Of a DNA stretch of 64,000 nt, positions 25,275 through 60,668 are shown in pieces. The DNA is taken from NCBI RefSeq assembly GCF_054482525.1, contig NZ_CM137006.1; one strand, given 5' to 3'. Position numbers and translations under genes: made by a program. The stretch's first letter is position 1. Each line of letters opens with the position of its first letter. A model generated the notes under the pieces. It worked only from the letters and a program-made list of their open reading frames with translations. It ran no database searches and was not told the origin of the DNA.

Positions 25275-25487
25275 CAGCTTTTCCTTACAGAGGGTGAATA
25301 AAAAAGCCGGTACCCACAAATGTGGATACCGGCAGGTACAAAACAGCATGGTCAGATAAAGTGGTTTTTCCCGGACATAAATGCTTCCCCTCTCTCATCC
25401 GCCTGAGAAGTATCAGTCCGTTGTGTGCAATTCCGTTCTGCATGATGAAGAGATTCAGCTGCCTTTTCGCAGGCCATTAACCACTAT

Positions 25488-25531
25488 AAACGATCGATAT
25501 AAACGATCGATATCTGTTTTATCGATCGTTT
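25488..25531 (-). promoter_or_regulatory. agn43 phase-variation switch: three GATC sites (Dam/OxyR region)
   Basis: GATC at 25492, 25505 and 25524 inside AAACGATCGATATAAACGATCGATATCTGTTTTATCGATCG, about 220-250 bp upstream of the Ag43 start. Confidence 0.6.
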
Positions 25532-26748: not shown

Positions 26749-27636
26749 TTAAATTCTCAATGTATCGATAACCGCTCGTAGGGCGGGTGACACATTGCGG
26801 TGCGGATAATAGATATATGAACCCTCCAGGCGTTGGCTGTAGCATTGCAAAACTCTGATTAGCGCCCCCTGTTCTATATCATCAGACACTAATTCCTCCG
26901 GAACATAGGCCAGCCCCAGACCTAGCCTTGCGGCTTTGGCTTCCATATAACTGTCAGCAAAGGCCCATTGTCCCTGAGGCTGATGGGTGATCTTTTTACC
27001 GTCCTGATTGAGTTCCCAGACATACAGACTGCCGTCGCCGAACTGGTAAGCGATGCAGGGATGACCTACTAAATCGGTGGGGGTTTGTGGAAATCCGTAG
27101 CGCTGAAAGTGCCCGGGCGTGCCGACAACAGCCATCTCCATATCGGGCGAAATGCGCACCGCAACCATACCGCTATCCACTTCCGAGCCCAGACGTATAC
27201 CGGCATCGAAGCGCTCAGTAATAATATCGACAAACCGGCTTTCGCTGATGAGCTCCAGCCGAATATCCGGGTATCGTTGTTTAAACACCGCCAGCTTCGG
27301 CAGCAGCACTTTATCAATGGCGTGCTGGCTCGCATTAATTCGGACCGTACCCGATGGTGTATGGCGATAATGGGCCAGTGTGGCAAGCCCCATATCTAAG
27401 GCGTCAAATCCAGATTCGACGTTTCGATAGAGTAACTCGCCGGCATGGGTGAGCGATAACTTGCGCGTGGTGCGTACCAGAAGCTGCACGCCCAGTCGCT
27501 CTTCCAGCTCGCGCACTGCACGGCTAATTCCTGATTGCGCCAGGCCAAGCCTCTGCGCGGCGGCGGTAAAACTCCCTTCTCGCACGACCTGCATAAACAG
27601 ATAGAGATCGTTATAGTTTTCCCGTTTCGCCATCAT
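26749..27636 (-). CDS. LysR-family transcriptional regulator
   Basis: 295 aa; N-terminal HTH FTAAAQRLGLAQSGISRAVRELEERLGVQLL plus LysR substrate-binding domain. Confidence 0.85.
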   Translation of the reverse strand: MMAKRENYNDLYLFMQVVREGSFTAAAQRLGLAQSGISRAVRELEERLGVQLLVRTTRKLSLTHAGELLYRNVESGFDALDMGLATLAHYRHTPSGTVRINASQHAIDKVLLPKLAVFKQRYPDIRLELISESRFVDIITERFDAGIRLGSEVDSGMVAVRISPDMEMAVVGTPGHFQRYGFPQTPTDLVGHPCIAYQFGDGSLYVWELNQDGKKITHQPQGQWAFADSYMEAKAARLGLGLAYVPEELVSDDIEQGALIRVLQCYSQRLEGSYIYYPHRNVSPALRAVIDTLRI

Positions 27637-27788
27637 CCTTCCCCTGCTGCATCACAATTCAGAACAATATGTTATTAATCTTAGCATTTTTTACCCTCTA
27701 ATTAGCACTATTAATGCTAACTATAATGTGCGCGTTGCAACAAAGCACAGCAGTGTTATCCGTATGAAACCAGTATCTGGCATATTTT

Positions 27789-28940
27789 ATGAGGGGGATT
27801 TTGATGACTGCTTTCACCCAAAAATTGACAGCCGCGATACCCACCATGCTGTTATGCGTATCATTAAGTGGAGTCACAAATATGAGTTACGCTGATACAA
27901 CCAATCCGAACGCGCCCGTTTCGCAGGTCGAGAAATGGGATAAAACTTTTGCTGAGAGCACGAAAGTTGATCACCGTAAGGTGACCTTTCCGAACCGGTA
28001 CGGGATCACCTTAGTCGGGGATCTCTATATACCGAAGGATCGTGGCGATCGCAAGCTGGCAGCAATTGCTGTTAGTGGCCCCTTCGGGGCGGTGAAAGAG
28101 CAATCCAGCGGCCTGTATGCGCAGACGCTGGCTGAACGGGGGTTTGTCACTCTGGCTTTTGACCCTTCATACACGGGTGAAAGCGGTGGCTACCCGCGAA
28201 ACGTCGCATCTCCGGATATCAACACCGAGGATTTCAGCGCGGCGGTTGATTTCTTAGGCCTGCAAAAAGAGGTGGATCGCAACCGTATCGGGTTGCTCGG
28301 CATCTGCGGATGGGGTGGCATGGCCTTAAACGACGCCGCGATGGACACACGTGTCAAGGCGGTGGCGAGCAGCGTGATGTATGACATGAGCCGTGCAATG
28401 GGGCATGGCGTGGGCGATGGCAAAGACCGCTATACCACTGCCGATCGTCGTGCCGTATTGCAGTATTTGAACATGCAGCGCTGGAAGGATGCTGAAAATG
28501 GCGCTTTCGCGCCAGGCGGGCATGATATTTACGTTGATGAGAAGGGCAACGTCACCGCTTCCGATCGTATTTTACCGGAAACTTTGCCAGCGAATTCTAA
28601 TCCGGTATTGAAAGAGTTCTTTGATTATTACCGCATGCCGCGTGGTTTCCATGCGCGTTCGGTCAACTCAACCAGTGCCTGGAATGCAACCATGCCTCTG
28701 TCATTTATGAATATGCCGCTGCTGAGTTACGCTAATGAAGTTACTATCCCTACACTCATCGTGACCGGTGAAAAAGCCCATTCACGCTATTTTGCTGAAG
28801 ATGCCTTTAAGGCAATCGGCAGCAAAGAGAAAGAGTTAGTGATTGTCCCCGAGGCAAACCATGTTGATCTGTACGACAACGTTGCGGGTAAGATCCCATT
28901 TGCCAAATTTGAGCAATTTTTCAAGGCAAACTTAAGATAA
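27789..28940 (+). CDS. Secreted alpha/beta-fold hydrolase (dienelactone-hydrolase-like)
   Basis: 383 aa; signal peptide ending ...NMSYA; GxCxWG nucleophile-elbow-like LGICGWGG; divergent from the LysR gene. Confidence 0.7.
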   Translation: MRGILMTAFTQKLTAAIPTMLLCVSLSGVTNMSYADTTNPNAPVSQVEKWDKTFAESTKVDHRKVTFPNRYGITLVGDLYIPKDRGDRKLAAIAVSGPFGAVKEQSSGLYAQTLAERGFVTLAFDPSYTGESGGYPRNVASPDINTEDFSAAVDFLGLQKEVDRNRIGLLGICGWGGMALNDAAMDTRVKAVASSVMYDMSRAMGHGVGDGKDRYTTADRRAVLQYLNMQRWKDAENGAFAPGGHDIYVDEKGNVTASDRILPETLPANSNPVLKEFFDYYRMPRGFHARSVNSTSAWNATMPLSFMNMPLLSYANEVTIPTLIVTGEKAHSRYFAEDAFKAIGSKEKELVIVPEANHVDLYDNVAGKIPFAKFEQFFKANLR

Positions 28941-29117
28941 CCCGAAAGGTTTACCAGGCCACCTGTCGTAAACGGGTGGCTTTTAACTGCCTGGTGTGAT
29001 GCAGAATATGCCGCATCGCCCTATATTCTCACCCAACTATTATGTCGTTATTCCCTGAATAACTTCTGACCCGATTGCGCTTGAATCTGGCTGGTTCGAT
29101 ATTAAGGGGGGCTAATA

Positions 29118-30311
29118 ATGTCCACTGTAAGTCTCAAACAATTATACGGAAAAACGCATGCATACTGGAGCGGCGTATTCGCCATGACGCTTTGCGTGTT
29201 TGTGCTGATCGCTTCTGAGTTTATGCCAGTCAGCCTGCTTACGCTCATTGCCCATGATTTGCACGTTACCGAAGGGCTGGCAGGGCAAGGAATTGCTGTC
29301 TCTGGTGCGCTGGCGGTGCTTACCAGTCTGACTATCTCCCGTATTGTCGGAGACCTGAATCGAAAATATCTTTTGCTGGGACTGACGGTCTTAATGGCCA
29401 TATCGGGAATAATTATCACTATAGCACCTGACTATCCGGTTTATATGCTGGGGAGGGCTCTGATTGGTGTTGTCATTGGAGGGTTCTGGTCAATGTCGGC
29501 TGCAACCGCCATTCGGCTCGTGCCGCAGCACCAGGTTTCCCGCGCACTGGCAATTTTTAACGGCGGAAACGCACTGGCCACCGTTGTGGCAGCGCCACTT
29601 GGTAGCTATCTGGGGACAACCATCGGCTGGCGTGGGGCCTTTTTATGTCTGGTCCCCCTTGCGATAGCTGCGTTCATCTGGCAATGGGTCAGTCTGCCTC
29701 CGATGGAAAGTGATAAAACACAAAAGCCACAGAGATCTGTGCTTCGCCTGTTCAGCGTTGCCATCGTACCAACGGGACTGCTGGCCTGCGGACTCTTCTT
29801 TATGGGACAGTTTGCTTTATTTACCTACGTGCGCCTCTTTCTGGAGAGCGTCACCAGAGTGGGACCTTCTGATCTTTCTCTGATTTTGCTCGCAATAGGT
29901 GTAGCAGGCTTTGTCGGCACAATGATCGTCTCAACATTCCTGAACACCATATTTTATAAGACCTTAATAATGATCCCGTTGCTTATGGCAGCGATTACCG
30001 GTGCGTTACTGCTGGTCGGACACCATATCTGGGCTGTTGCCGTTTTACTCAGCCTGTGGGGGCTACTTGCGACAGCTGCGCCAACGGGGTGGTGGACATG
30101 GATAGCACGCGCGTTACCCGAAGATGCAGAGACGGGGGGAGGCCTCATGGTTGCAGTGATTCAGTTATCTATTGCACTTGGTTCAACGGCTGGAGGTCTG
30201 GTATTCGACAGTCTGGGATGGAGAAGTGCTTTTGGTTTAAGTGGTTTGTTACTTCTGGGAGCGGTAGCGATGACATGTGCCACATCCCGTCAAAACAGGA
30301 AGGCGCAGTAG
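29118..30311 (+). CDS. MFS transporter
   Basis: 397 aa; about 12 hydrophobic segments; MFS-like motif GDLNRKYLLLG. Confidence 0.85.
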   Translation: MSTVSLKQLYGKTHAYWSGVFAMTLCVFVLIASEFMPVSLLTLIAHDLHVTEGLAGQGIAVSGALAVLTSLTISRIVGDLNRKYLLLGLTVLMAISGIIITIAPDYPVYMLGRALIGVVIGGFWSMSAATAIRLVPQHQVSRALAIFNGGNALATVVAAPLGSYLGTTIGWRGAFLCLVPLAIAAFIWQWVSLPPMESDKTQKPQRSVLRLFSVAIVPTGLLACGLFFMGQFALFTYVRLFLESVTRVGPSDLSLILLAIGVAGFVGTMIVSTFLNTIFYKTLIMIPLLMAAITGALLLVGHHIWAVAVLLSLWGLLATAAPTGWWTWIARALPEDAETGGGLMVAVIQLSIALGSTAGGLVFDSLGWRSAFGLSGLLLLGAVAMTCATSRQNRKAQ

Positions 30312-30843
30312 CGCAATCCTTTTATTTCTGGCGTACGCTCTTTAAGGCATCCGGCTGAGAGGCTAATGATCACTCCTCGCTCACAACGGACCTTCAGCTC
30401 AGCCGCTCCGGCCGCTTCATGCCATGAATGTACGCAGCCAGTCAGAATATTAAGGTGCGGATTTCAGTTCACTTGCCAGCCCAGTGATACAGGACAGTAA
30501 TGACCAACAATTTGGTATTGATACAACAAGTTGCGGCCCCGGTTCGTGGGGGAGATGAAACGAAGGTAGCTGAAGTTACTGAAATGAAGAATTCAGAGAG
30601 ACTGAATGATATGCCTCACCTTTAGTGAATAGTGTAAAAACGGGAGACTCTCACCCGAGATTATCCACTCATGCTCAATGTATAACTTTCGTGCCCCTCA
30701 CAGGTAAGAGCCGGATACATTCGTTGTGTATGCTGCAGAATTGGTAACCGGGGCCCTGCAGTCTTTAACTCCATGTCTTGTGCTGCTCATTTGCCACAAA
30801 ATCCTGGTACGTCTGCTCAATCATTTCATTCAGCAGTTTTTTT

Positions 30844-30852
30844 GGGGGGGGG
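30844..30852. repeat. G9 homopolymer inside a decayed coding region
   Basis: Nine consecutive G; minus-strand translation on either side gives protein-like sequence in two different frames. Confidence 0.5.
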
Positions 30853-32688
30853 CTCCACGACTTCGGGCAATACTTTCAGGCTGTTTGTGGATTTTTCCGG
30901 ACAGTTTCAGCGGGACGGAACCATCAGCACGTTCATCACGCCTTTTTTGTTGCTCCCTGGCACTTTTCAGTTCATCCACAATATAGCTGCTCTTCTCGCA
31001 TTTTTGCCGATTTTAAAAATGCGAACAAAACATCCGTACATGATGTACAGATTAAACTGCCAGGGACTGGTGTCAGAAAACCTCCGGTTAGCCTGCTCTT
31101 TCCGGAATGTGCCGGTTATGAAAAACCGGAAATTCAGTCTCTGTTGTAAGATGTACCCTCTGATACTACGTTTTCGTTTTCTCTGTGTATTTAACTCACT
31201 GTATTTATTGTCTTTTTAAGCCTGACTGATATTCTCCGGTCATAGTGTGCCTGATAGACATCCCGTAACCTTCTCATTTTTATATAAAAATACCTGCACT
31301 GTCTTCAGCGCATCTGTCTCCTTTAAGTAAAAAATGTTTTCACGTATTGCTGTAAATTCATTTTAAATCAGTATGTTATCCTGATATTGCTGTCTCCTGG
31401 TTTGATGCGTAATCGTTCTGCCTTTCTGGATGATTCTGGTGCTTCCGGGTGCATTCTCCTCTGCACATGCAACAGTTCGTCATCGCCACGTGCCCAAAAG
31501 CATATAAAAACGAATCGAATCTGATCGTTTTTTCAATCGTTTTTCACAGGAATTTCGTAGGGTGTTCTCCGCTATAGCCTCCATATTTGCTGTCTTTTTC
31601 TTCATAAATCGTATGCAATATAACCAGTCTGTCAAGACATCTTCCCTGCTGTTGAGGTGACGATCTCATTTCTGGTCTTTTCCGGGAGAGAGACGGTCAG
31701 ATGAGCGAGCCGGATTTACTGCCAGAGGTACTCCCCGCGGCAGAAAATAGTGCTCCTGTTTCCGCAATCCGGGATCGGCAACGTCCCATGGTTAATGCCA
31801 CTTGCAGCGTCAGGCACTGCAGGTTTACGTCGTGATCTGATTTCTTCTGCACTTATCCCGATCACGGAAGTTCCCCCTGCGCAGACATCGGTTCCTGCCG
31901 ACATCTCACAATACCGCCAGGCAGTCATGCAGTAACACCCGCAATGCGGTCTGCGGTTTTAAGCGCACTCTCCTGTATTCAGTGCACCGATAATGCATCA
32001 TAGAAAGTCCGGGGGGAGTTACTGAATGTCTGTTAAGTGGTGCCGTGGGTGGAGACTGCTTACTTTTCCACAGTAACTGCAGTCATTCAGGATGCTCAGG
32101 AGAGAATATGTCAACGCCACGGGCCGGGCCATTTTCATGCCAGCCAGGATATTTTCAATATTGATGCTGTCTGCTTTTCACCATTTCATCCTCACTGACT
32201 GATGTTGTATTTTTGTGCAGCACTACAGATTTGCGTTTCTCTTTTAACTGGTCACGCTCTCCTTTGATATTCAGCGTGGTTGAGTGATGCAGCAGTTGAT
32301 TCAGGATTGCTGTTGCCCTGCAACCACCATATCAACTTCTTCCCGGCATGCCGGCGCTGGTATCCAGGCCGGGTTTCGAAGTGAAGCGTTCCTGACGGAC
32401 TCATTGATATCCGGGCCGGATGTAGTCATGCAGCATGGAACGTCTACCCGTATACACTGACGGCGTCCGGCCGTGTACATCTCTTCCGCGGTTCAGGGAG
32501 CAGCTGTCGCCATGTACTTATTGTCACCAGGAGAGGCATGTACCGCAGCATGCCAGCTCAGCAGTGACAGGATGCCCTTAAGACATCCGTCATGGCTCAG
32601 TATGACGACGCCCCCGCTCTGCAGGTGAGCATGCGGGGCCGGGAGCAGCATTCCCGTATTTTGCCGCACCTTCCGGAAGCAACCGGCA

Positions 32689-33297
32689 TCAGTTACGGTT
32701 ATCGTCAACCGTTGTGCGGTATGCCAGGAGCACGTACTGATCCATCAGATCCGCCAGTGCTGCGTTCTGCTTCTGACGGTCGATGATCCATTCCCCCAGC
32801 TCTTTTTCTGATTTACGTTTCAGGTTCTCCGTCCAGTCGTCAAGGCTGTTTCCGGTCATTAAATCAAGCCAGCAAAGCCAGACCAGTTTGAGGCGCAACT
32901 CAGTGCCACCAAACTGACGGAAGAGGCTGATCAGTTTATTTGCCAGAGAACGCTGCCTCAGACGTTCACATTCAGACAGCAGAATGCCTTCCAGCATCGG
33001 ATGATGAACCAGCAGATGTTCGCTGGTGCATAAGTTCACCACCAGATCATCATCCAGGGGCGGCGTGGCCCGTTTGTCAGAGCCATAAATCAGCCGGTGC
33101 AGACTCCGGGGGACGATGGCAATCTCCGGTTTTTCACCATTGAATGACACCCACCCGGGCGTCAGATTATGGAAGTAGTGGATATTCGGATGACACACGC
33201 CCCAGGATACGGCGTGCCGGGTGAAGCCGGTCAGCCATTTCTGGTAGCTTTCGTGGAGCAGCTCGTAACGGGTCTGATACTGTGGTTTCATTTTCAT
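32689..33297 (-). CDS. Hypothetical protein downstream of alpA
   Basis: About 200-aa ORF; ATG 33297 behind GTGAGGAA; no motif recognised. Confidence 0.5.
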   Translation of the reverse strand: MKMKPQYQTRYELLHESYQKWLTGFTRHAVSWGVCHPNIHYFHNLTPGWVSFNGEKPEIAIVPRSLHRLIYGSDKRATPPLDDDLVVNLCTSEHLLVHHPMLEGILLSECERLRQRSLANKLISLFRQFGGTELRLKLVWLCWLDLMTGNSLDDWTENLKRKSEKELGEWIIDRQKQNAALADLMDQYVLLAYRTTVDDNRN

Positions 33298-33384
33298 ATT
33301 CCTCACGGGGGATAACAGGCAGCAGAACGCCGCCGGCAGGCCGGAGATTGCGTCTGCTGTGGGTGAAGGGGCAGTGGTTAAAAA

Positions 33385-33570
33385 TTACGGACGGGACTGT
33401 GCAATACGCGCCTGCAGCCAGGCTTCCACTTCACTTTTCAGCCAGCGGGAGCTGCGGCCAAGTTTGATGGGAGCCGGAAAGGCCCCATCCTTGATGAGCT
33501 TGTAAAACCACTTATCGGTCAGGCCGGTCAGCTGAGTGATAAACGCCATATCGACCATCTGGTCATCCAT
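33385..33570 (-). CDS. alpA: AlpA-family transcriptional regulator
   Basis: 61 aa; ITQLTGLTDKWFYKLIKDGAFPAPIKLGRSSRWLKSEVEAWL is AlpA/Vis-like. Confidence 0.8.
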   Translation of the reverse strand: MDDQMVDMAFITQLTGLTDKWFYKLIKDGAFPAPIKLGRSSRWLKSEVEAWLQARIAQSRP

Positions 33571-33580
33571 CAGCGAAACT

Positions 33581-33588
33581 GGGGGGGG
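33581..33588 (-). repeat. C8 homopolymer (coding strand) between an SD-preceded ATG (33592) and the alpA start
   Basis: GGGGGGGG on + strand; upstream ATG with GGAGG; current length gives a 9-codon out-of-frame mini-ORF overlapping the alpA ATG. Confidence 0.5.
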
Positions 33589-33975
33589 TCATAAAAATCT
33601 CCTCCGGATGTTGTTAATCTCAACCGGCGTTGATGATGAAAACAACGCACCACCTTCACCGGCATAACAACCGGGGAGAAACGTAAAAAATCAGTAGGGG
33701 AATATTCCTGCCAGGAGAGAAACGGTTGTGTACAGGCAATACAGGTTGTCTGTTTTGTCAGTGAAGCCGGTATAAACGGAAGATGATTTTGTGTTGCCGG
33801 AATATGGGATGGTATTTTGTCGTGACGGAATCAGTATTTTCAGTGATGATTATTACTGCGCAGGGGAGTACCGGAGAGAAACCACGCCCTGTACCTGCCA
33901 GAGCGGTGGTTTGTATTGACTGAACGGAAGATAAAGCGAGGTAAACACTGTTGTGGTGAGCGGAGAAGACTGAGA

Positions 33976-42858: not shown

Positions 42859-44121
42859 CTATTTTAATGGATTGTTAATCTTTGCATATTCAAACGGGCT
42901 GATACATTGTTCTCTGTTCGCACCCAGAAAATCTGCCCACCACTGTAGCATCAGTCGACGTTCTTCCAGATGTTCTGCTTTATGGATATATGCAGCACGT
43001 ACACCATTACGCTCCTGATGGCTCATCTGACGTTCCACAGCATCGCGGGACCACAAACCTGATTCAATCAATGCACTGCACGCCATCGCCCGGAATCCAT
43101 GACCACAGACTTCCTGGGTTGTGTCATATCCCATCACCCTCAGGGCTTTATTTACAGTATTTTCACTGATCGGTTTACGCGGGTCATGTGCTCCCGTAAA
43201 GATCAGACCATTTTCACCAGCCCATGTCTGTAGTTCTGTCAGTATGGCTACAGCCTGTTTGCTGAGTGGCACAAGATGTGGTGTTCGCATCTTGGAGCCC
43301 CGGTGTGAGTATTTTACGCCTGGCAGAGGTTCGCGTTCGGCTGGAATAGTCCACATGGCATTGTCAATATCAATTTCAGACCAGCGGGAATATCTGAGTT
43401 CACTGGAACGAATAAAAACCAGTAAATTCAGCATAACTGCCAGTCGGGTGACAGGCTGACCTTTATAACCGTCAATACGCGACAGAAGTTCAGGCAGGCG
43501 TGAAAGATCCAGAGCAGGGCGATGCTGGCGTTTTACCGTGGTCAATGCACCAGCCATATCCAGAGCCGGGTTATATCTGATGATGCCAGACTGTACGGCA
43601 TAACGCATTACAGCAGATATTCTTTGCTGCAGACGACTGGCGATTTCATAAATTTGTTTTGCTTCTGCAGCACGAACAGGGATAAGCAGGTCCGGGGTAT
43701 TGAGTGTTGTGATATCCCGGTTGCCGATAAAGGGGAAAACGTGTGTCTCGAGGCTTTTGATTACTTTATCGCTGTGTGATTGTGCCCATTGTTTATTACT
43801 GGCATGCCAGCGTCGTGCAATATGTTCAAAAGAGAGTTGTAAATCAGGGACTACTTTTTTAGCTCTTTTTTGTTCGCAAGGGTCAATCCCCTCTGAAATC
43901 AGTTTTCGGGCCTCATCCCGTTTTGTACGAGCTTCGGAGAGAGAAACTTCTGGATATACACCAAGTGCCAGAGTCTTCTCCTTACCCAGAATACGATAAC
44001 GGAGACGCCAGTAACGGGAACCATTAGGATGAACCAGCAGGAACATGCCAGCCCCGTCAGTGAGTTTATAAGCCTTGTCAGTGTGCTTTGCAGCCCGGAT
44101 TTTTGCGTCAGTCAGTGCCAT
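42859..44121 (-). CDS. int: P4/CP4-57-type tyrosine integrase
   Basis: 420 aa; MALTDAKIRAAKHTDKAYKLTDGAGMFLLVHPNGSRYWRLRYR N-terminus; C-terminal catalytic region with R...HxxR...Y. Confidence 0.9.
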   Translation of the reverse strand: MALTDAKIRAAKHTDKAYKLTDGAGMFLLVHPNGSRYWRLRYRILGKEKTLALGVYPEVSLSEARTKRDEARKLISEGIDPCEQKRAKKVVPDLQLSFEHIARRWHASNKQWAQSHSDKVIKSLETHVFPFIGNRDITTLNTPDLLIPVRAAEAKQIYEIASRLQQRISAVMRYAVQSGIIRYNPALDMAGALTTVKRQHRPALDLSRLPELLSRIDGYKGQPVTRLAVMLNLLVFIRSSELRYSRWSEIDIDNAMWTIPAEREPLPGVKYSHRGSKMRTPHLVPLSKQAVAILTELQTWAGENGLIFTGAHDPRKPISENTVNKALRVMGYDTTQEVCGHGFRAMACSALIESGLWSRDAVERQMSHQERNGVRAAYIHKAEHLEERRLMLQWWADFLGANREQCISPFEYAKINNPLK

Positions 44122-44286
44122 AGTTCAGCCTTCTGAATGCGTTAAAGAGGGTACAAATTCTGTCGAACTGGGGTATACCCGCAATTATACCCACACAATG
44201 GGGTTGATGTGGGGGGAATCTGGTTGAGTTCGGTAGAATTGATTTGGAGGCAGAACGCTTAAATTGTGGCGTTCTGAAACGAAAAA

Positions 44287-44306
44287 CGGACCTCCGTGGA
44301 GGTCCG
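44287..44306 (-). terminator. Hairpin CGGACCTCC-GTG-GAGGTCCG followed by T-run on the minus strand
   Basis: Perfect 9-bp stem between the tRNA-like repeat and the integrase gene. Confidence 0.4.
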
Positions 44307-44318
44307 TTGATATGAATT

Positions 44319-44340
44319 TGGTGCCCGGACTCGGAATGAA
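44319..44340 (-). repeat. tRNA-Phe 3'-end-like repeat (island att-site remnant)
   Basis: TGGTGCCCGGACTCGGAAT matches the reverse complement of a tRNA-Phe 3' end, then diverges; no full tRNA. Confidence 0.55.
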
Positions 44341-44584
44341 ACTGGTTATATAACCAATTGTTTTGTATCGACTGTTTTATCCTTGTTCTTTTTGAGGCCA
44401 CCAATGAGGCCCCCATGTGCAATTCGAATTCTTTTGACGCTATAATCCCTCTTTCTTGTGGTTTGTTGTAATCATTTTGTCTGGTTCGATATGCTGAATC
44501 GCGGAATCGAAGTGACAACAAAATACAGAGATTTATAAAATACCTGGCTACCTGTGTTAGGGAGCGTTAACGCACAGATTTTGT

Positions 44585-44911
44585 TTATGGCTGCCAGAAA
44601 TGATCTGATGGTTTGTCGTCTGGCTCTGCAAGTACCCTGTTGATATCCCGGGAACCATGAACGATACGTTCGATACGAACTTCAGTATCCAGTACCCTGA
44701 ACAGCAGAAGGTAACGACCATACGAACAACCTCTGATCCCAGCCCCTAACTCGGGTCTTTCTCTGTAGAGTACTGGCGATTCGGCTATCAACAGACATTG
44801 TTGGTAAAGCTCTTCGGTAAAACTGATTGCACGGACAGGATTATCCTGAGCGATCCAGTCACCTATAGCTTCAAGATCGTGTTCTGCTAATGGTGAAACA
44901 GTCAGTTTCAT
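44585..44911 (-). CDS. parE: ParE/RelE-superfamily toxin (type II TA)
   Basis: 108 aa; 4-nt overlap with the upstream antitoxin gene. Confidence 0.75.
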   Translation of the reverse strand: MKLTVSPLAEHDLEAIGDWIAQDNPVRAISFTEELYQQCLLIAESPVLYRERPELGAGIRGCSYGRYLLLFRVLDTEVRIERIVHGSRDINRVLAEPDDKPSDHFWQP

Positions 44912-45171
44912 ATTGGCTGTTCACCTTCTGCCATCTTTTTGTATTTGTGCGTCAGTCGCCCGAATACCTCTTCAGCACTTTTACTTTCACCGCTGTTGAT
45001 GCCTGCGGCCACGGCGCTCTGGAGTGATTCAAGCTTTATCTGCTGTTCCCGTTCTTCCAGAGCACGAAGTCCGGCACGAATGACTTCACTTGTATTGTTG
45101 TACCGACCACTTTCTATTTGTTCGCGGATAAACGTTTCAAAGTAAGGACTGAGGGATACACTGGTAGGCAT
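44908..45171 (-). CDS. parD: ParD-like antitoxin (type II TA)
   Basis: 87 aa; ...SEVIRAGLRALEEREQQ... ParD-type fold signature. Confidence 0.7.
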   Translation of the reverse strand: MPTSVSLSPYFETFIREQIESGRYNNTSEVIRAGLRALEEREQQIKLESLQSAVAAGINSGESKSAEEVFGRLTHKYKKMAEGEQPI

Positions 45172-45242
45172 GGTTATTTTCTCGCCGATTGATTACTATC
45201 AATTAATAATAGTTAATATTCGCGAATTGTAAAATACCTCTT

Positions 45243-46109
45243 TTATGCCTTGCGGCTTTTGTTCACTGTGCTTGCCAGGGCTTCCGGGTAGTGTCTGGCA
45301 ATAATATCATTAAGCCTGTCAACCAGCTCTGGTTTCCTGAACGTGATGTGCGCGGAGCCCTTCTTAAAGTATCTGATGCTGAACATCTCATCTTCATAGT
45401 CCTCTTTACCCTGAACAGACTGGATGTGATCATCCAGATGAATGGTGATGTTTTCCCGGTTGTCGGGGATCGGTTTGCCGCTGAACAGGTGCAGCATTCT
45501 TTCCAGATCGGCAAGTCGATCGGCCTGTTGTCCGGTGATAAGATGAAACCCCCACCGGTCCCACCTCACCAGATTGTTGACGATAATTTTACTGCCAAAT
45601 TTGCAGGGTGAATTGGTTTTGTAATTCCAGCTCAGTCCTCTGAAAACGTTGAGCACCCCTCGCTCAAACACTTCATCTTTGTTCTGGTGCAGTTGTTCAA
45701 ACGTGCTCAGGATATTTGCTTCGCTGATTTCCGGAAAATTATCGTACTCCAGTGACCGGTACCATGTATCACGGGCTTGTGCATCCATTAATGACAGCAT
45801 CCCTGAACGTTGCATCAGATCACGCCAGATTTCGCGGTCAAGGTTGCGGGTGATGGCTTTCATTGCGGTTTCCGGTTTTTCCATCAGCCAGCAACCGCAG
45901 CGAAAATCCTGTTTCATGGCCCAGTCCAGTGCAGTTTTACCTCCGATGCTTTCCGTCAGCACCGAGATTTCTGCCAGTTGCCGGATAAGTGTGTCGATTT
46001 GCAGCAGCGCACTCTTTCGTACAGCCAGAATGTGGCGGATGCTGGTTGAGCCGATAACGTCCGTATGCCCGTTGACCACTTCCGGACGGGGGGCTGTGAT
46101 TTCAGACAT
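45243..46109 (-). CDS. Conserved island protein, probably DUF4942 family (copy 2)
   Basis: 288 aa; paralog of 17326-18168. Confidence 0.6.
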   Translation of the reverse strand: MSEITAPRPEVVNGHTDVIGSTSIRHILAVRKSALLQIDTLIRQLAEISVLTESIGGKTALDWAMKQDFRCGCWLMEKPETAMKAITRNLDREIWRDLMQRSGMLSLMDAQARDTWYRSLEYDNFPEISEANILSTFEQLHQNKDEVFERGVLNVFRGLSWNYKTNSPCKFGSKIIVNNLVRWDRWGFHLITGQQADRLADLERMLHLFSGKPIPDNRENITIHLDDHIQSVQGKEDYEDEMFSIRYFKKGSAHITFRKPELVDRLNDIIARHYPEALASTVNKSRKA

Positions 46110-46193
46110 AATCGATATTCCTTTTTGCAGATAAATGAAAACGCCAGCCCTGTTCAGGCTGGCGTCAGTGGAATGAAGTCTGGTGAGTAAGAC

Positions 46194-46391
46194 TCACCGG
46201 TTCTGTTGCAGAAGCTGCAACTGGCGCAGGATACGGATATCCTCCCTGGCCTGTTCGATACAGGGCAACAGTGCTGCCGAATCCGTTCTATCCTCATCGT
46301 TGTCAAAGATAATTCCCGATTCGCAGTCGATATTGTCCTGTAGCCACGCAATCAGAATATCCAGTGCGGTTTCCGTGGTTAATGATTTCAT
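46194..46391 (-). CDS. Small conserved protein downstream of yeeW-like gene (copy 2)
   Basis: Paralog of 18253-18450; start at ATG 46391, 11 nt after the yeeW-like stop. Confidence 0.5.
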   Translation of the reverse strand: MKSLTTETALDILIAWLQDNIDCESGIIFDNDEDRTDSAALLPCIEQAREDIRILRQLQLLQQNR

Positions 46392-46402
46392 GTTGTTCCT
46401 GG

Positions 46403-46894
46403 TTACCAGTCGAAAGTGGGCAGGTCCGGCAGACATTCAGCGCTGGCATCCAGATGAATGAGACTGACGCCATAACGTCGGGTAAGTGTGACAACCAGAC
46501 GACGGAACGTTTTTGACAGGCCCAGGCGCTTAAGCCGCAGAACCGGGTATGACCACGCATCGGTACGTAACAGATATCCGCTACCTGTGAAATGAATCCA
46601 TTCTGATTCGCCGGTGCCATTCGTCTGATGTGACAGCGAGTACAGCCAGGCGTTGTCCTTTGCCGTGATATGCGCGGTACTGCAGCGTATGCCGGTAAGG
46701 GCCGCCGCAGATGATGGCGTGCGCTCTGCTGATGTCCGGTCAGATTCATCAACAACACGAAGGGAGTAACCGTTATCGCAGACCACGTTAATCAGTTCAG
46801 CGAGAGTAACACCATCGACGTCAACGACAATGCGCCCCATGTTCAGTGCCTGCACGTTAATGCTGTCGGCTTCCAGCGTCAGGGCCAGTTTCAT
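46403..46894 (-). CDS. yeeW: YeeW-like protein, full length (copy 2)
   Basis: 163 aa; intact counterpart of the truncated copy at 18462-18950. Confidence 0.65.
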   Translation of the reverse strand: MKLALTLEADSINVQALNMGRIVVDVDGVTLAELINVVCDNGYSLRVVDESDRTSAERTPSSAAALTGIRCSTAHITAKDNAWLYSLSHQTNGTGESEWIHFTGSGYLLRTDAWSYPVLRLKRLGLSKTFRRLVVTLTRRYGVSLIHLDASAECLPDLPTFDW

Positions 46895-47268
46895 TGTTTC
46901 GCCCCCGGATGTTTACCCAGGGTAATGTTATTTACCGTTCTGTAATTGTCGCGGGCCATCAGGCCGGTTGCCCGGCGGGCCCGGAGGATATCAATACTGT
47001 TTATTAACTGAGAACGGGTACAGGCGCTGAATCCTGGCTGGTCGGTACGTACCAGTGCGTATTTTTCAACGAGAAAGTTCACCGCATCGCACAGTGAAAT
47101 GCCTGCCTCAATATGCTGCTCAATCACACGTTCATCAGCGAACGGTGTGTCATTCAGTGTGAGGCCGTAATGCTGGTCCAACAGTCGGGTGAGCAGTGTC
47201 TGCCAGATGGTGACGGGAGACGGGCAGCGCGATGCCTCCCGTACGTGTGTGTCAGGTAATGTTTTCAT
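46891..47268 (-). CDS. cbtA: CbtA/YeeV-family toxin (copy 2)
   Basis: Start at MKTLPDTHV (47268); the track ORF extends upstream to 47370. Confidence 0.85.
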   Translation of the reverse strand: MKTLPDTHVREASRCPSPVTIWQTLLTRLLDQHYGLTLNDTPFADERVIEQHIEAGISLCDAVNFLVEKYALVRTDQPGFSACTRSQLINSIDILRARRATGLMARDNYRTVNNITLGKHPGAKQ

Positions 47269-47314
47269 CTTAAGTTCTCTGTAACTGGTAGTGCTAAAGG
47301 TGAGATATTCGGGG

Positions 47315-47689
47315 TTATGAGGTGGTTGCGGGTGCCAGTGTCGGATAAACAGCCATATAAACGTAACCACAACTGCTGAGGGTATCGGCTTTGCAGGTCA
47401 GCCCTTTTGCATACAGCGTGACGGTATGCTGATGGCGGGGATTCAGTTCACCGCTGGTGAGCATGAGTTCCAGTTGTTTCATCAGCAGCGGAAAGGCCTG
47501 GTCCAGATGGTACGCATCCGCGTCGCTGAACCGGCCTCTGATACCGGCGCGGTCTGCAAGGTAATGCAACCGGTTACCCTCCTGCACCAGACGTGCCCCA
47601 AAACAGGGCGTCACGGTGCAGGGTAGCCCCCACCAGGGGCGGTCGTTGTTATCGTCGGGATGCGTTGTCCCGGGGAGAGTGTCTGACAC
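47315..47689 (-). CDS. cbeA: CbeA/YeeU-family antitoxin (copy 2, intact frame)
   Basis: 124 aa, [42 protein letters not shown]...; GTG start. Confidence 0.8.
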   Translation of the reverse strand: MSDTLPGTTHPDDNNDRPWWGLPCTVTPCFGARLVQEGNRLHYLADRAGIRGRFSDADAYHLDQAFPLLMKQLELMLTSGELNPRHQHTVTLYAKGLTCKADTLSSCGYVYMAVYPTLAPATTS

Positions 47690-47768
47690 GATAAAATCCT
47701 CACAGAAAATTGGTTAAGAATGGTCCGGTGGTGGCGATAATTCTGCTCTTCTGAATGCCCTTCCAGAC

Positions 47769-47990
47769 TCAGTTCAGGGTGACGCTCATCAGCCGGACAT
47801 ACGGGCCAAAACTGTCCTTACGGCGTTCAGCAAACACGGCCAGCACACCGGGAATATCCTGCACTTCACGACCGGTATACGCTTCAGCACTGCCGTGCCA
47901 GCGGTATTTGCCGGTACAGAACGGAAAAAGACGGGATGCCGGATGCTGACGGTGAATACGCATGGCTTCGCCACGGGTGATGATTTTCAT
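47769..47990 (-). CDS. yeeT: DUF987/YeeT-like protein (copy 2)
   Basis: 73 aa paralog. Confidence 0.7.
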   Translation of the reverse strand: MKIITRGEAMRIHRQHPASRLFPFCTGKYRWHGSAEAYTGREVQDIPGVLAVFAERRKDSFGPYVRLMSVTLN

Positions 47991-48058
47991 AGTGGGATAC
48001 CTCTGAAGACAGAAGATAAAAGTGAAAACAGGTGTGATATGGTTGTGGCGGTGACGGG

Positions 48059-48550
48059 TTAAAGCAGACCGTGTTCCGCAAAGGAGAAAACCTGGTTGCC
48101 ACCAACTATCAGATGGTCCGGTACCCGGATATCCACCAGGGCCAGTGCCTGTACCAGGCGTTCCGTGATAAGGCGATCTGCCTTACTGGGGGTGACTTCA
48201 CCGGACGGGTGGTTGTGTGCCAGTATCACGGCAGCGGCATTGTGGTACAGGGCACGTTTAATTACCTCCCGGGGATGGACTTCCGTGCGGTTGATGGTGC
48301 CTGTGAAGAGGGTTTCACCGGCAATCAGCTGATTCTGGTTGTTCAGATACAGTACCCGGAACTCTTCCCGCTCCAGTCCCGCCATGTTCAGAATCAGCCA
48401 TTCCCGTGCCGCATGCGTGGAGGTGAAGGCCACACCGGGTTCATGAAGATGGCGGTCCAGGGTTTTCAGGGCCCGCAGAATGAGGCTGCGCTCGCCGGGC
48501 GTCATCTCTCCGGGCAGAAAGGAAAGCTGTTGCATTGTGCTTCTCTCCAT
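48059..48550 (-). CDS. yeeS: RadC-like JAB-domain protein (copy 2)
   Basis: 163 aa; HNHPSGEVTPSKAD. Confidence 0.85.
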   Translation of the reverse strand: MERSTMQQLSFLPGEMTPGERSLILRALKTLDRHLHEPGVAFTSTHAAREWLILNMAGLEREEFRVLYLNNQNQLIAGETLFTGTINRTEVHPREVIKRALYHNAAAVILAHNHPSGEVTPSKADRLITERLVQALALVDIRVPDHLIVGGNQVFSFAEHGLL

Positions 48551-49036
48551 TCAGTCGATGATGCGCATAATGGCGTTGCATTCCGGATGCTGCAGGGCGT
48601 AATCCCGCAACCGATAATAATGGACCGTCATGGCATAATTCTCTGTACGACAGGCGTGATGACTGTACGCCATCAGACAGGCGGCAATGCCGGCGGCTTC
48701 CGGGCTCATTTCAGCGCGGTTGCCGTTCATGGCATTGAACAGTACCCATGTTTCGTCATCATCGTCATCCGGTTCGGGTACCATAAATGCCCCACCGTTG
48801 TTCAGGGTGTACAGATTCCAGATACCACCGCAGTAGTCTTCGCAAAGACGGTCCATCCAGCCGAAGACACGGGGCTCCAGGGTCACCCACTGTGGAATGA
48901 GGCCAAAATGTTGCGGCCAGAAACTGATGCGCTGTTCATCAGGGACGGGAGTGGCAACCAGTTGAGACTGGTTATTCCCTGGTGCAGTGGTTACGGAAAC
49001 AGAAGGCGTGGTGGAGCTATGCGAAAAGGTTGTCAT
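48551..49036 (-). CDS. Antirestriction protein (KlcA/ArdB-like, copy 2)
   Basis: 161 aa paralog. Confidence 0.8.
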   Translation of the reverse strand: MTTFSHSSTTPSVSVTTAPGNNQSQLVATPVPDEQRISFWPQHFGLIPQWVTLEPRVFGWMDRLCEDYCGGIWNLYTLNNGGAFMVPEPDDDDDETWVLFNAMNGNRAEMSPEAAGIAACLMAYSHHACRTENYAMTVHYYRLRDYALQHPECNAIMRIID

Positions 49037-49127
49037 GAGATGATTCCTTATAAAAAGTAAATGAATGGAAGAATGCCCGGGGACTGGTACAGACGTGAGT
49101 CAGGGTTGCACTTTCAGGGAAACAGCA

Positions 49128-49946
49128 TCAGCGCATGCTCTCCAGCAGCGTTTCTGCCATCACCCACAATGCGCGATTGAGCTTAATGTCCGTGTCGATG
49201 CTGTGAATGGCACGGGTGTGGATACGTTTTCCTTTAGCGCTGCGACCAGAAATCCCGCCTTTCAGCATATTTTCCTGGATGGTCTGATAAGCACTCCACA
49301 GGTCCTTACCGTAATCCTCCCGGCGTCGTGGCGTCAGAATGTCGGCGGTGGTGACGGGCTGATGTTCGTCACCATAACGGTAAGTCAGTGCCGCCTGTGC
49401 CAGCGCCTGGCGTGCCGGTGGCGGCAGGACCAGCGACTGCATGGCATCACGCTTTTCCTCAATCCGGTCAAAAACGCCCACCACTTCGTAAGCCCCTTCA
49501 ATGACTCTGTCCACCACATTTCCCCGGTGCGGAACACGCACTTCCCCCAGAGACTGACCACAGACGCAGCCGTTCTGGCAGACGAACCTGAAGTAACCCG
49601 GCAGCATCTGGTAGCTGGAGGTACCGTCATGGGAGTTCAGCAGGATGATTTCAGGGACATGTTGTCCGTTTATCTCCCCGTCACGGCGCAGACGCAGCAT
49701 GTGTTTGGTATACCCCCGGCGGCCCGGGTCACGTACGCGGGTCTGGCAGGCAAAGAAGGGCTGAAAGCCTTCCCGCTGCAGGCTTTCCAGCACGGTGATG
49801 GTGGGGATCCAGGTATAGTTCTCGCTTCTGGATGTGTGCTTATCTTCCCCGAATACGCTGGGGACGACCTGCATCAGTTCTTCGCGAGTTAAGGGGCGGT
49901 CACGGCGTATCTGGTTCGCATAACCAAAACGACTTGCTAATCGCAT
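49128..49946 (-). CDS. DUF932-family protein (copy 2)
   Basis: 272 aa paralog. Confidence 0.7.
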   Translation of the reverse strand: MRLASRFGYANQIRRDRPLTREELMQVVPSVFGEDKHTSRSENYTWIPTITVLESLQREGFQPFFACQTRVRDPGRRGYTKHMLRLRRDGEINGQHVPEIILLNSHDGTSSYQMLPGYFRFVCQNGCVCGQSLGEVRVPHRGNVVDRVIEGAYEVVGVFDRIEEKRDAMQSLVLPPPARQALAQAALTYRYGDEHQPVTTADILTPRRREDYGKDLWSAYQTIQENMLKGGISGRSAKGKRIHTRAIHSIDTDIKLNRALWVMAETLLESMR

Positions 49947-50036
49947 GATTTGCTCCTTATGAATGAGTTAGCGATATAAATGAAAAAGCCGCGCCTCCCG
50001 GAGAAGACGCGGCCTGATGGATGAAATGAATGACGT

Positions 50037-57094: not shown

Positions 57095-57467
57095 TGGCTC
57101 AGCGTATGCGCCATTTGCTTACATATGGGCTTAAACCCTAAGGGGCCCCAGGCTGCATACGCTTTGCCAAATCTGTTCGCTGCTCATGATAACGAAGAAC
57201 CAGGATACAAGGTGGAAGATCCTCAACGCTCAGGGGCGCAATGTTCCCTGTGTTTCATGCCCCCATCGTTTGTTGCTGTGGTGCCAGACTTCTGAGGCAC
57301 CTCCATGTCGTTTTGCTTTTGTCAGCATCATAAATGCGTCGGGACTGGTGAATGGATACAAGCCATTTTATTATCGACGTCAGCGAACATACTCACAATG
57401 TCGGTATATTTCTGAACTGAACAGTAAGTTTTGCGTTGATTACAGTATGCGAAGGAGGTCCATTACA

Positions 57468-59116: not shown

Positions 59117-60668
59117 GAGGTTGGTGATAAGGCGTTTTGCATATCCTGCACCTATGCAAATGTTCACCAATTATGGGGGGGGAATGAGAATTTCTCTGAA
59201 AAAACCGCTACGGTAGCAACAGTAGCAGCACATGCACCACATCTGTGATTTAATTTTGTTTTCATAATGACCTGCTGTCAGAGCTGGTTGAATACAGGAG
59301 TGTGCGCACTGGTGGAAGCATGGCTTTCGTTTTTTATTGATCGAAAGTGAATCGAAAGATTATTTTTAACATAGATTAAAGCTAATCATTAACCATATTG
59401 TGTGAGTTTTCATATATAACTTCGTTTGATTTTCGTCGTGATGAGTGTAGGTGTATATGATAATGTCGGTCTCTGCCTGAATAACGAATGGTTATCACTG
59501 TTACTGAAAAGAGATGCTGTTCAAGTTTGCATTTCAATAGGAGAGTGAAGAAAAATGATTTGATATTTTTTCTGTAAGATAATGGTTTGTCATGTTCGTA
59601 TTCAGAACGGATGATTTCTTATTTTTACTCATCAAACATGGATAATTTTAATTTAGGTTTATTACTATAATTAGTATCTACCCCTTTATTTATCATCCAT
59701 CTCTGCCCTTCATTTTCCCTCTCTGTCTTTACACATTCCATTACTCTTATTCTCATCCAGTTATATTCACTCCCTTCCTTGTCTAATCTTCATTGTCACC
59801 ATTATCATGGTATCCACCTTCTCCATTCCTCAATCATAACTACTGTAACTCATATGATACTCAGATAAGTTATTCTCTACTACGCTATTGCTGATATCCA
59901 TCTGTTCCTGTTTTCAGTAAAATAATAATTTATTTTAATTTTATCCATCATGAGCTGTATTTGCTTAACAATGATTGTTTATCTGATATGTTTTAACCAT
60001 TCTGGTAAATATCAATACTTCTGTCATCACTGATTAACTGAATGCTTACTCTTTAATAAGGTATCCATTATTCTGTAACGATTAGCCGAGCAGGGTAAAT
60101 AACAGAATTAATAGAGTGAATTTCTGATTGTGTTTGTTCGTTCCTGATTATCTTGTATTTTAAATAAAATGAAAATTATCCATCCATGGTATGTTTCATT
60201 CTGGTACCGTGTACCCGTTAACGTTCATATCTTGAACATGAGTTGTTTTTAACAGATAAAATGAGTGCGTGTAAGTTTATTGGGTTACAGGTATCGTGTT
60301 GGCCTTGTACACGGTTTTTTAGAACCATTGAGAGCAAGTTTGTAATTTATGATGGTGATTAGTCGTAATATGTTTCTTGAACTTCTGATCGTGGGTTTTT
60401 ATCGCATATTTTGCAGTATTTCGTGATGTTTATTGATTCTGTATTTTATTCACTCCTCGTTTATCTCATCTCTTTAGCTAATACCATCAGATAATCCATT
60501 TATTTCTGCACAACGCTACGTGTCGTTAATAACCGACGTATCCATTCTGTTACAGCATGCCTGATAAATACCGTCTGTAAGTTATTACCGTTTTAGATCT
60601 GATTATGAGCGAAAGCATTAATTCGTTTACAGCACTTAAAACGTCATTAACTTTCAGGAGTCATCAGC

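What the first reader, a model, noticed from the sequence alone, without database searches (positions are those of the whole stretch)
30700..32690. About 2 kb of decayed coding sequence containing a G9 homopolymer
Between the MFS gene and the alpA-linked gene there are only short, mutually overlapping ORFs. Minus-strand translation around 30760-31010 gives protein-like sequence (…YIVDELKSAREQQKRRDERADGSVPLKL… then …KKLLNEMIEQTYQDFVANEQH…) split across two frames at a 9-G run (30844-30852). Likely a pseudogene, possibly switchable by tract length.
Basis: seen in the sequence. Interest (0 to 1): 0.3.

Follow-up and report, generated by a model that had tools for sequence, protein, structure and literature searches.

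The report
Dead island gene with slippery G-run
This stretch of an E. coli genomic island holds the broken tail of an uncharacterised island gene, a dead insertion-sequence fragment and about 1.1 kb with no sign of coding; the run of nine Gs changes length between strains but cannot switch the gene back on.

Summary
G9 lies at 30844-30852, and the minus-strand peptides on either side are real protein sequence split over two frames.

They are the last 71-72 codons of an uncharacterised ~391-aa island gene. That gene is intact in 1961 of 5426 complete E. coli genomes. Here a 952-bp internal deletion, shared by 328 genomes, removed about codons 6-320. The native ATG (31001) now stops after 9 codons, upstream of the tract. 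No tract length from G6 to G13 gives more than a 72-aa ORF, so the tract is not a switch for the gene.

The tract is derived. Intact genes read T-C6-A8 or CCTCCC-A7 on the coding strand. The long tract occurs in only 14 genomes, as G9, G10 or G11, and these are otherwise near-identical over 2.15 kb. That fits slippage in dead DNA, though assembly error cannot be excluded.

"2 kb of decayed coding sequence" is only partly right. About 0.2 kb is the gene tail and about 0.33 kb (32128-32454) is an IS21-family istA/istB remnant. The 1.1 kb between them shows no coding signal here, and no long ORF or annotated gene in the two intact-gene islands examined.

RefSeq already annotates both pseudogenes. 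This is ordinary.

Side observation: alpA, 2.7 kb away, has a C8 tract at codons 2-4 that breaks its native frame. Related islands carry C7 to C11.

The parts
30373..30764 (-). Conserved 3' flank of the island gene. Homology with islands that carry different cargo begins at about 30373-30377.
   Evidence: blastn of the window against L005 and L004: 30377-30976 and 30373-30976 align at 89%. The neighbouring cargo differs between islands.
30765..30979 (-). C-terminal remnant (71-72 codons) of a ~391-aa uncharacterised island gene (family of WP_072646255.1, WP_001336040.1, WP_000263647.1). It is split over two frames at the tract.
   Evidence: Translations; DNA alignment A1; PGAP pseudogene at the same coordinates in a near-identical genome.
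30837..30852 (.). T7 then G9 on the + strand (C9 then A7 on the coding strand). G9 is 30844-30852. The tract is derived and variable in length.
   Evidence: locate it. G9, G10 and G11 occur in otherwise near-identical relatives. Ancestral states are T-C6-A8 and CCTCCC-A7.
30977..30987 (.). Junction of the 952-bp internal deletion (L005 positions 4377-5328 are missing); about 11 nt do not align.
   Evidence: The junction sequence is present in 328 of 5426 genomes, and homology to intact genes stops at 30976.
30972..31001 (-). Retained native start codon (ATG at 31001-30999) and the first five codons, now a 9-codon ORF (MREEQLYCG*) that ends upstream of the tract. A GTG at 30979-30977 overlaps it in the frame of the tail.
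   Evidence: frame showing KMREEQLYCG*; L005 starts MWEEQ.
31002..32127 (.). Region upstream of the island gene with only short ORFs. It is AT-rich at 31100-31700 and shows no coding signal here.
   Evidence: No Pfam hit in six frames; no Rfam hit; no 3-base periodicity of substitutions, unlike the control gene; only short non-conserved ORFs in L004 and L005; GC content 35-44%.
32128..32454 (-). IS21-family remnant. It holds the IstB C-terminal fragment (annotated 32155-32316) fused to a short IstA fragment (around 32357-32386).
   Evidence: blastn to annotated istB genes at about 85%; PF01695 profile positions 209-237, E=0.0032; tblastn with IS100 IstB residues 223-254, E=4e-7, and IstA residues 114-123, weak here but E=3e-5 in the syntenic L004; PGAP 'AAA family ATPase' pseudogene.
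32455..32688 (.). Variable spacer downstream of the 205-aa alpA-linked gene. Part of it (32382-32465) replaces 352 bp present in L005.

Best explanation
The region is a decayed piece of the backbone of a CP4-44/CP4-57-type E. coli genomic island, whose other genes include a P4-type integrase, AlpA, a YeeP-like GTPase, Ag43 and CbtA/YeeU.

Shown: an uncharacterised ~391-aa backbone gene was inactivated by one 952-bp internal deletion. The deletion kept the start codon and five codons and left only the last 71-72 codons, out of frame with that start.

Shown: upstream lies an older IS21-family insertion, itself reduced to an istA/istB stub.

Inferred: in one small sub-lineage of the dead allele, a substitution joined interrupted C runs on the coding strand, and the run then expanded to C9-C11.

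Inferred: such a long homopolymer gains and loses units by slipped-strand mispairing. That would explain why near-identical genomes carry G9, G10 or G11.

Shown by simulation: translation from the native start ends before the tract, and no tract length rebuilds more than a 72-aa tail ORF.

Inferred from that: the length changes have no consequence for the gene. This is neutral hypermutation in a relic, not a phase switch.
For: - Intact 391-aa and 390-aa genes sit at the syntenic position in L005, L004 and CFT073.
- The intact gene is present in 1961 of 5426 genomes.
- The deletion is mapped to L005 4377-5328, and its junction is present in 328 genomes at 98% identity or more, indicating a single origin.
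- The native ATG reads MREEQLYCG*.
- Simulated G6-G13 alleles give at most 72 aa.
- The long-tract allele occurs in only 14 genomes.
- Window, L001, L002 and L003 differ over 2.15 kb only by tract length and one other 1-bp indel.
- Other carriers of the same deletion have T-C6-A8 (in frame), C6-A7 (-1) or C6-A6 (-2). The frame is therefore broken in several independent ways, as expected without selection.
- The IS21 remnant is supported.
- PGAP annotates both relics as pseudogenes.
Against: - G10, the only in-frame long allele, is the commonest of the 14 (about 8). The retained promoter region, start codon and a GTG overlapping the leader's stop could in principle express a 71-aa tail.
- The tail carries the family's invariant residues.
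- Differences in tract length between assemblies could be sequencing errors rather than real mutations (PMC4134206). Two assemblies of strain NCTC86 differ at the alpA tract.
- The function of the ancestral gene is unknown, so residual activity of the tail cannot be judged.
Confidence: 0.85

Rival explanations
1. The tract is a working phase switch for a small free-standing protein. The retained promoter and 9-codon leader drive translation from the overlapping GTG (30979). G10 (or G7, G13) would then yield a 70-72-aa protein comprising the family's most conserved C-terminal module, which might bind DNA. G9 and G11 would truncate it.
For: - G10 joins the frames into VDELKSAREQ...HKTWS* of 71 aa.
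- All 18 invariant columns of the family alignment lie in this tail.
- G10 is the commonest state among the 14 genomes.
- The leader's stop codon overlaps the GTG.
Against: - Sampled carriers of the same deletion include frame-broken tails: C6-A7 in Nissle and CREC-544, C6-A6 in M6.
- There is no clear Shine-Dalgarno sequence before the GTG.
- The tail matches no Pfam, PHROG or PDB DNA-binding family.
- The window itself carries the OFF length.
- No expression data are available.
Confidence: 0.04
2. The G9/G10/G11 differences are not biological. They would be homopolymer miscalls in long-read or 454-type assemblies of a tract that has a single true length.
For: - Homopolymer indels are the dominant discrepancy between assemblies of one strain (PMC4134206).
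- Two assemblies of strain NCTC86 report C8 and C7 at the alpA tract.
- The tract is the only variable site among otherwise identical sequences.
Against: - In the assemblies of this clade listed, the nearby alpA tract is uniformly C8 while the longer tract varies.
- Shorter states of the same site differ heritably between lineages: C6-A7, C6-A6 and T-C6-A8.
- This rival concerns only the polymorphism. It does not change the identification of the relic.
Confidence: 0.25
3. The 1.1-kb stretch without long ORFs (31002-32127) is not junk. It would be a functional non-coding element of the island backbone, such as a long regulatory leader or promoter region, or an undescribed small RNA.
For: - It is retained upstream of the gene in islands with intact copies.
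- Its AT-rich part, 31140-31590, is the least diverged segment against L004: about 5% compared with 11-17% elsewhere.
- One sigma-70-like site lies at 31635-31608 on the minus strand.
Against: - No Rfam match at E<=1.
- Promoter-like sites are not above shuffled expectation.
- Overall the segment is the least conserved of the three aligned blocks: 84.6% against 88.9% and 93.1%.
- It is absent from the Citrobacter relative, whose gene lies 500 bp from alpA.
Confidence: 0.12

Closest known systems
Slipped-strand-mispairing contingency loci (poly-G/C tracts in coding regions, as in Neisseria, Haemophilus and Campylobacter; from general knowledge)
   Same: A G/C homopolymer of 9 or more bases lies inside a reading frame. 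Its length differs by single units between near-identical genomes, and this moves the downstream frame in and out of register.
   Different: The tract sits in the tail of a gene already destroyed by a 952-bp deletion. No tract length restores the protein. The tract is absent from the intact copies examined (L004, L005, CFT073). The frame is broken in several ways across carriers of the deletion.
CP4-44 / CP4-57 / CP4-6-type cryptic P4-like islands of E. coli
   Same: The backbone matches: P4-type integrase, AlpA, YagK/YfjJ-like protein, Hha, YeeP-like GTPase, IsrC, Ag43, DUF932, antirestriction protein, RadC/JAB protein, YeeU/CbtA and DUF4942.
   Different: The K-12 CP4-44 region examined has no DNA-level homologue of this 2-kb region or of the 391-aa gene. 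The 391-aa gene belongs to a backbone variant common in other strains.
IS21-family insertion sequences (istA transposase plus istB AAA+ helper)
   Same: 32128-32454 retains the IstB C-terminus and an IstA fragment. It is about 85% identical at DNA level to annotated istB genes.
   Different: Only about 330 bp survive. An internal deletion fuses istA to the end of istB. There is no intact gene and no pair of terminal repeats, so the element is immobile.

Membership tests
Phase-variable (contingency) gene controlled by a homopolymeric tract | A long mononucleotide tract within the coding region or promoter | tested here: met
   G9 at 30844-30852 lies inside the remnant reading frame.
Phase-variable (contingency) gene controlled by a homopolymeric tract | Tract length varies between very close relatives or within a population | tested here: inconclusive
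   G9, G10 and G11 occur in genomes otherwise near-identical over 2.15 kb. Assembly error cannot be excluded, and no read-level data are available.
Phase-variable (contingency) gene controlled by a homopolymeric tract | At least one tract length yields the full-length functional product | tested here: not met
   G6-G13 give at most a 72-aa tail ORF. The native start terminates after 9 codons, upstream of the tract, and about 320 codons are deleted.
Phase-variable (contingency) gene controlled by a homopolymeric tract | ON/OFF expression demonstrated | not testable with these tools
   This needs reporter fusions or proteomics.
Pseudogene of the ~391-aa island-backbone protein family (WP_072646255.1 and relatives) | Significant similarity to intact family members at the syntenic position | tested here: met
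   89% DNA identity over 30377-30976. The in-frame (G10) version of the tail, from L001, is 89% identical to the L005 protein. The flanks are the same: the alpA/205-aa genes on one side and a cargo junction on the other.
Pseudogene of the ~391-aa island-backbone protein family (WP_072646255.1 and relatives) | Disabling lesion(s) | tested here: met
   A 952-bp internal deletion (net -941 nt, out of frame) plus a tract frameshift.
IS21-family insertion sequence | IstB (PF01695) and IstA coding sequences | tested here: inconclusive
   Only fragments remain. The PF01695 match covers profile positions 209-237 at E=0.0032, below the gathering score. tblastn gives IstB E=4e-7 and a weak IstA match. 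blastn is 85% identical to annotated istB genes. This is enough to call a remnant, not a member element.
IS21-family insertion sequence | Complete element with both terminal inverted repeats | tested here: not met
   About 330 bp survive. Homology to IS21-family copies ends at 32128, and the istA side is truncated.

The most novel reading that the evidence does not exclude
The most novel reading not excluded concerns both poly-C tracts of this island lineage, which lie on the same strand. The alpA tract sits at codons 2-4 and is C8 here, putting the native start out of frame. Near-identical alpA alleles in related islands carry C7 to C11. It could act as a stochastic translational switch or dimmer for AlpA, the regulator that triggers excision in CP4-57-type elements, making island stability phase-variable. 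In the same scenario the G9-G11 tract of the finding would toggle a 71-aa tail protein.
Probability: 0.07. Interest if true: 0.55.

Novelty: already known. Interest (0 to 1): 0.12.

Why it matters
It matters little. The case shows how island backbones erode through a deletion, an IS stub and a runaway homopolymer. It also warns that a long G-run inside protein-like sequence is not evidence of phase variation unless some tract length restores a complete gene.

Two by-products may be worth more than the finding:
- The intact ~391-aa gene is a widespread orphan (36% of complete E. coli genomes) with no Pfam, PHROG or PDB relative, and it heads the YeeP-CbtA backbone module in a Citrobacter relative.
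- The alpA start region carries its own length-variable C-tract.

Tried and rejected
- **Rfam**, whole window at gathering scores and 30300-33800 at E<=1: nothing in the region. The only hit is IsrC/IS102 at 25293-25529.
- **Pfam, NCBIfam and PHROGs** on the intact 391-aa protein, the 71-aa tail, and the 205-aa and 263-aa neighbours: no meaningful family.
- **Six-frame Pfam scan of 30990-32700:** only the IstB fragment.
- **PDB sequence searches** with the protein and with a profile of the tail: no credible hit. My guess that the tail is a ribbon-helix-helix domain therefore stays unsupported.
- **AlphaFold2 model:** mean pLDDT 62, mostly helical. Foldseek against the PDB gave nothing.
- **Promoter and terminator scan:** not above shuffled expectation.
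- **K-12 CP4-44 (yoeG, yoeH region):** no DNA homology, so no K-12 gene name applies.
- **The + strand ORFs of 148 and 123 aa across the tract:** rejected as genes. They are antisense to the remnant, span the deletion junction and are not called by PGAP.
- **Citrobacter relative:** DNA and tblastx comparison found only alpA and the 205-aa gene conserved.

Full report
**1. Observation**

The + strand reads T7 (30837-30843) followed by G9 (30844-30852). Minus-strand translation gives ...YIVDELKSAREQQKRRDERADGSVPLKLSGKIHKQPESIARSRGAPPQKNC* in one frame. Another frame gives ...PPPKKLLNEMIEQTYQDFVANEQHKTWS*.

From the MFS gene's stop (30311) to the 205-aa gene (32689-33306) there are only short, overlapping ORFs. 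A lone G9 in 64 kb is not statistically remarkable: 22 of 100 dinucleotide shuffles contain one. Runs of G8 or longer are mildly enriched, with 4 overlapping matches against 1.17 expected.

**2. Context**

The window is E. coli chromosome. The 2.15-kb region is 99.8-100% identical to 14 complete genomes. In a near-identical genome it lies inside a CP4-44/CP4-57-type island. That island carries a P4-type integrase next to tRNA-Phe, IS debris, a YagK/YfjJ-like protein, Hha, a YagM-family protein and AlpA. After AlpA come a 205-aa protein, this region, and LysR/hydrolase/MFS cargo. Beyond the cargo are a YeeP-like GTPase, IsrC, Ag43, DUF932, an antirestriction protein, a JAB/RadC protein, YeeU/CbtA and DUF4942.

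PGAP already annotates two pseudogenes here. One is a [quoted passage not shown] at 30765-30979. The other is an "AAA family ATPase, incomplete" at 32155-32316.

**3. The protein-like sequence**

Related islands carry an intact minus-strand gene at the syntenic place:
- L005:4167-5342, 391 aa, WP_072646255.1
- L004:4167-5315, annotated from an internal GTG as 382 aa (WP_001336040.1); the 391-aa ATG-started ORF (4167-5342) is also open there
- CFT073, 390 aa, WP_000263647.1

Its last 72 codons match the two window peptides. The intact gene is present at 80% coverage or more in 1961 of 5426 complete E. coli genomes.

blastn maps window 30377-30976 to L005 3812-4376, and window 30988-32381 to L005 5329-6729. 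The window therefore lacks L005 4377-5328 (952 bp), with about 11 unalignable bases at the junction. The start codon survives at 31001-30999 but now reads MREEQLYCG*, ending at 30972, upstream of the tract. The junction sequence occurs in 328 genomes at 98% identity or more, while homology to intact genes stops exactly at 30976. This points to one deletion event, inherited or spread by recombination.

**4. The tract**

On the coding strand, intact genes read GGT GTC CCC CCA AAA AAA ATG (T-C6-A8) or GGT GTC CTC CCA AAA AAA CTG.

Carriers of the deletion show several states:

| Coding-strand state | Frame relative to ancestor | Examples |
|---|---|---|
| T-C6-A8 | in frame | 536, Santai |
| C6-A7 | -1 | Nissle 1917, CREC-544 |
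| C6-A6 | -2 | M6 |
| C9-A7 | +2 | window, L002 |
| C10-A7 | +3, in frame | L001 |
| C11-A7 | +4 | L003 |

The C9 to C11 states occur only in the 14-genome clade of the window. From the match lengths, that clade holds about four G9 genomes (plus the window), about eight G10 and two G11. Window, L001, L002 and L003 differ across 2.15 kb only in tract length and one 1-bp indel at 32502.

PGAP calls the G10 version "incomplete" and the G9 and G11 versions "frameshifted; incomplete". Simulating G6 to G13 gives at most a 70-72-aa ORF from GTG 30979 on the minus strand.

The tract is therefore a derived, slippage-prone run inside a relic. It cannot restore the gene. The varied frame-breaking states among deletion carriers argue against selection on the tail.

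One caveat applies. Homopolymer length is the classic assembly error (PMC4134206), and two assemblies of strain NCTC86 disagree at another tract of this island. Against pure artefact, the listed assemblies of this clade all agree on C8 at alpA.

**5. The rest of the "2 kb"**

*IS21-family stub, 32128-32454.*
- It is about 85% identical to annotated istB genes on many plasmids and chromosomes.
- It matches the last 29 positions of PF01695.
- tblastn with the window's own IS100 proteins gives IstB residues 223-254 at E=4e-7 and a short IstA match.
- The IstA fragment is larger in the syntenic L004 (E=3e-5).

*No coding signal, 31002-32127.*
- It gives no Pfam hit in any frame and no Rfam hit.
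- Substitutions against L004 and L005 show no 3-base periodicity. The 205-aa control gene shows it clearly (12/29/10, p=0.0016).
- The corresponding stretch in the two intact-gene islands examined (L004, L005) holds only short, non-conserved ORFs and, apart from one 79-aa call in L004, no annotated gene.

This 1.1 kb is thus the gene's native upstream region or very old debris, not recently decayed coding sequence. Its AT-rich core (31140-31590) is the best-conserved part against L004. I could not take this further.

**6. What the lost gene was**

The family is small and restricted to enterobacteria. Most members are from E. coli. Relatives at 25-31% identity occur in Citrobacter koseri, Cronobacter sakazakii and unnamed samples. 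It has no Pfam, NCBIfam, PHROG or PDB relative.

The AlphaFold2 model is helical with a disordered Pro/Thr-rich linker (pLDDT 62), and it has no Foldseek match in the PDB. All invariant alignment columns lie in the C-terminal tail. The pattern of an extended segment followed by two helices made me think of a ribbon-helix-helix domain. Nothing confirmed that idea, and it remains inference.

In the Citrobacter island the gene lies immediately upstream of the YeeP-like GTPase and divergent from alpA. It may therefore be the first gene of the GTPase-DUF932-antirestriction-RadC-CbtA module. In E. coli, different cargo sits between it and the GTPase:
- MFS, hydrolase and LysR genes here
- an iron ABC transporter in CFT073 and Nissle
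- dynamin-family genes in L005
- DUF2971 and an acetyltransferase in L004

**7. Verdict**

"Pseudogene" is right. "Switchable" is wrong for the gene. "2 kb of decayed coding sequence" is about one-quarter right. The feature is ordinary and already annotated as pseudogenes in RefSeq.

**8. Side observation: the alpA start**

In most islands alpA starts ATG ACC ACC CCA... (MTTPVSLMDDQ..., 68 aa) behind a GGAGGAG Shine-Dalgarno sequence. In the window's clade it reads ATG ACC CCC CCC AGT... = MTPPSFADG*. This is a C8 tract, seen as G8 at 33581-33588 on the + strand. PGAP falls back on the internal ATG at 33570, giving 61 aa.

Near-identical alpA alleles carry the following tract lengths:

| Tract | Frame | Product from the native start | Records |
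|---|---|---|---|
| C7 | in frame | 68 aa | most of the ~140 records at >=99% identity (inferred; 31 listed) |
| C8 | out of frame | 9-aa peptide | 16 |
| C9 | out of frame | 7-aa peptide | 5 |
| C10 | in frame | 69 aa | 7 |
| C11 | out of frame | not translated here | 1 |

This is a better candidate for length-dependent expression than the assigned tract. However, the NCTC86 discrepancy (C8 against C7 in two assemblies of one strain) shows that it needs read-level verification.

Noticed in passing
window 33581-33591 (minus strand; alpA start region): A C8 tract at codons 2-4 of alpA puts the native start, which has a strong Shine-Dalgarno sequence, out of frame (MTPPSFADG*). PGAP calls a 61-aa ORF from the internal ATG at 33570, which the short ORF's stop codon overlaps. 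Near-identical alleles in other genomes have C7 (in frame, 68 aa), C9, C10 (in frame, 69 aa) and C11. Two assemblies of strain NCTC86 give C8 and C7. This could be a length-dependent dimmer of the excision regulator, or assembly noise.
   Followed up: partly
L005:4167-5342, L004:4167-5315, L008:2976-4148 (intact counterparts of window 30765-31001): The intact ~391-aa gene is an orphan present in 1961 of 5426 complete E. coli genomes, with no Pfam, NCBIfam, PHROG or PDB relative. Its invariant residues cluster in the C-terminal ~70 aa. In a Citrobacter koseri island it lies immediately upstream of the YeeP-like GTPase and divergent from alpA.
   Followed up: partly
window about 30373 (and 26749-30311): Homology between island variants ends about 390 bp downstream of the gene, and different cargo follows: LysR/hydrolase/MFS here, an iron ABC transporter in CFT073 and Nissle, dynamin-family genes in L005, DUF2971 and an acetyltransferase in L004. 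This looks like a cargo-exchange hot spot between the gene and the YeeP-like GTPase.
   Followed up: no
window 31140-31590: The AT-rich core (GC 35-44%) of the upstream region is its best-conserved part against L004, about 5% diverged compared with 11-17% in neighbouring blocks. It has no conserved ORF and no Rfam hit. It could be a regulatory region; this is unexplained.
   Followed up: partly
window 32502: A single extra A relative to three otherwise near-identical genomes (L001, L002, L003). It is the only difference in the 2.15 kb besides the G tract.
   Followed up: no
window 59175-59182: A third G8 run, intergenic, about 100 bp downstream of a 628-aa ORF (57186-59072) in what appears to be another island segment.
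   Followed up: no
window 25293-25529 (minus strand): An Rfam IS102/IsrC small RNA (79 bits) lies between the YeeP-like GTPase and Ag43 genes, as in K-12 CP4-44.
   Followed up: no
window 42859-50000: A second integrase-sized ORF (42859-44121) is followed by a region 92-94% identical to the window's own DUF4942-CbtA-antirestriction module at 17-22 kb. This suggests two related islands in tandem. No tRNA gene is found anywhere in the window.
   Followed up: no
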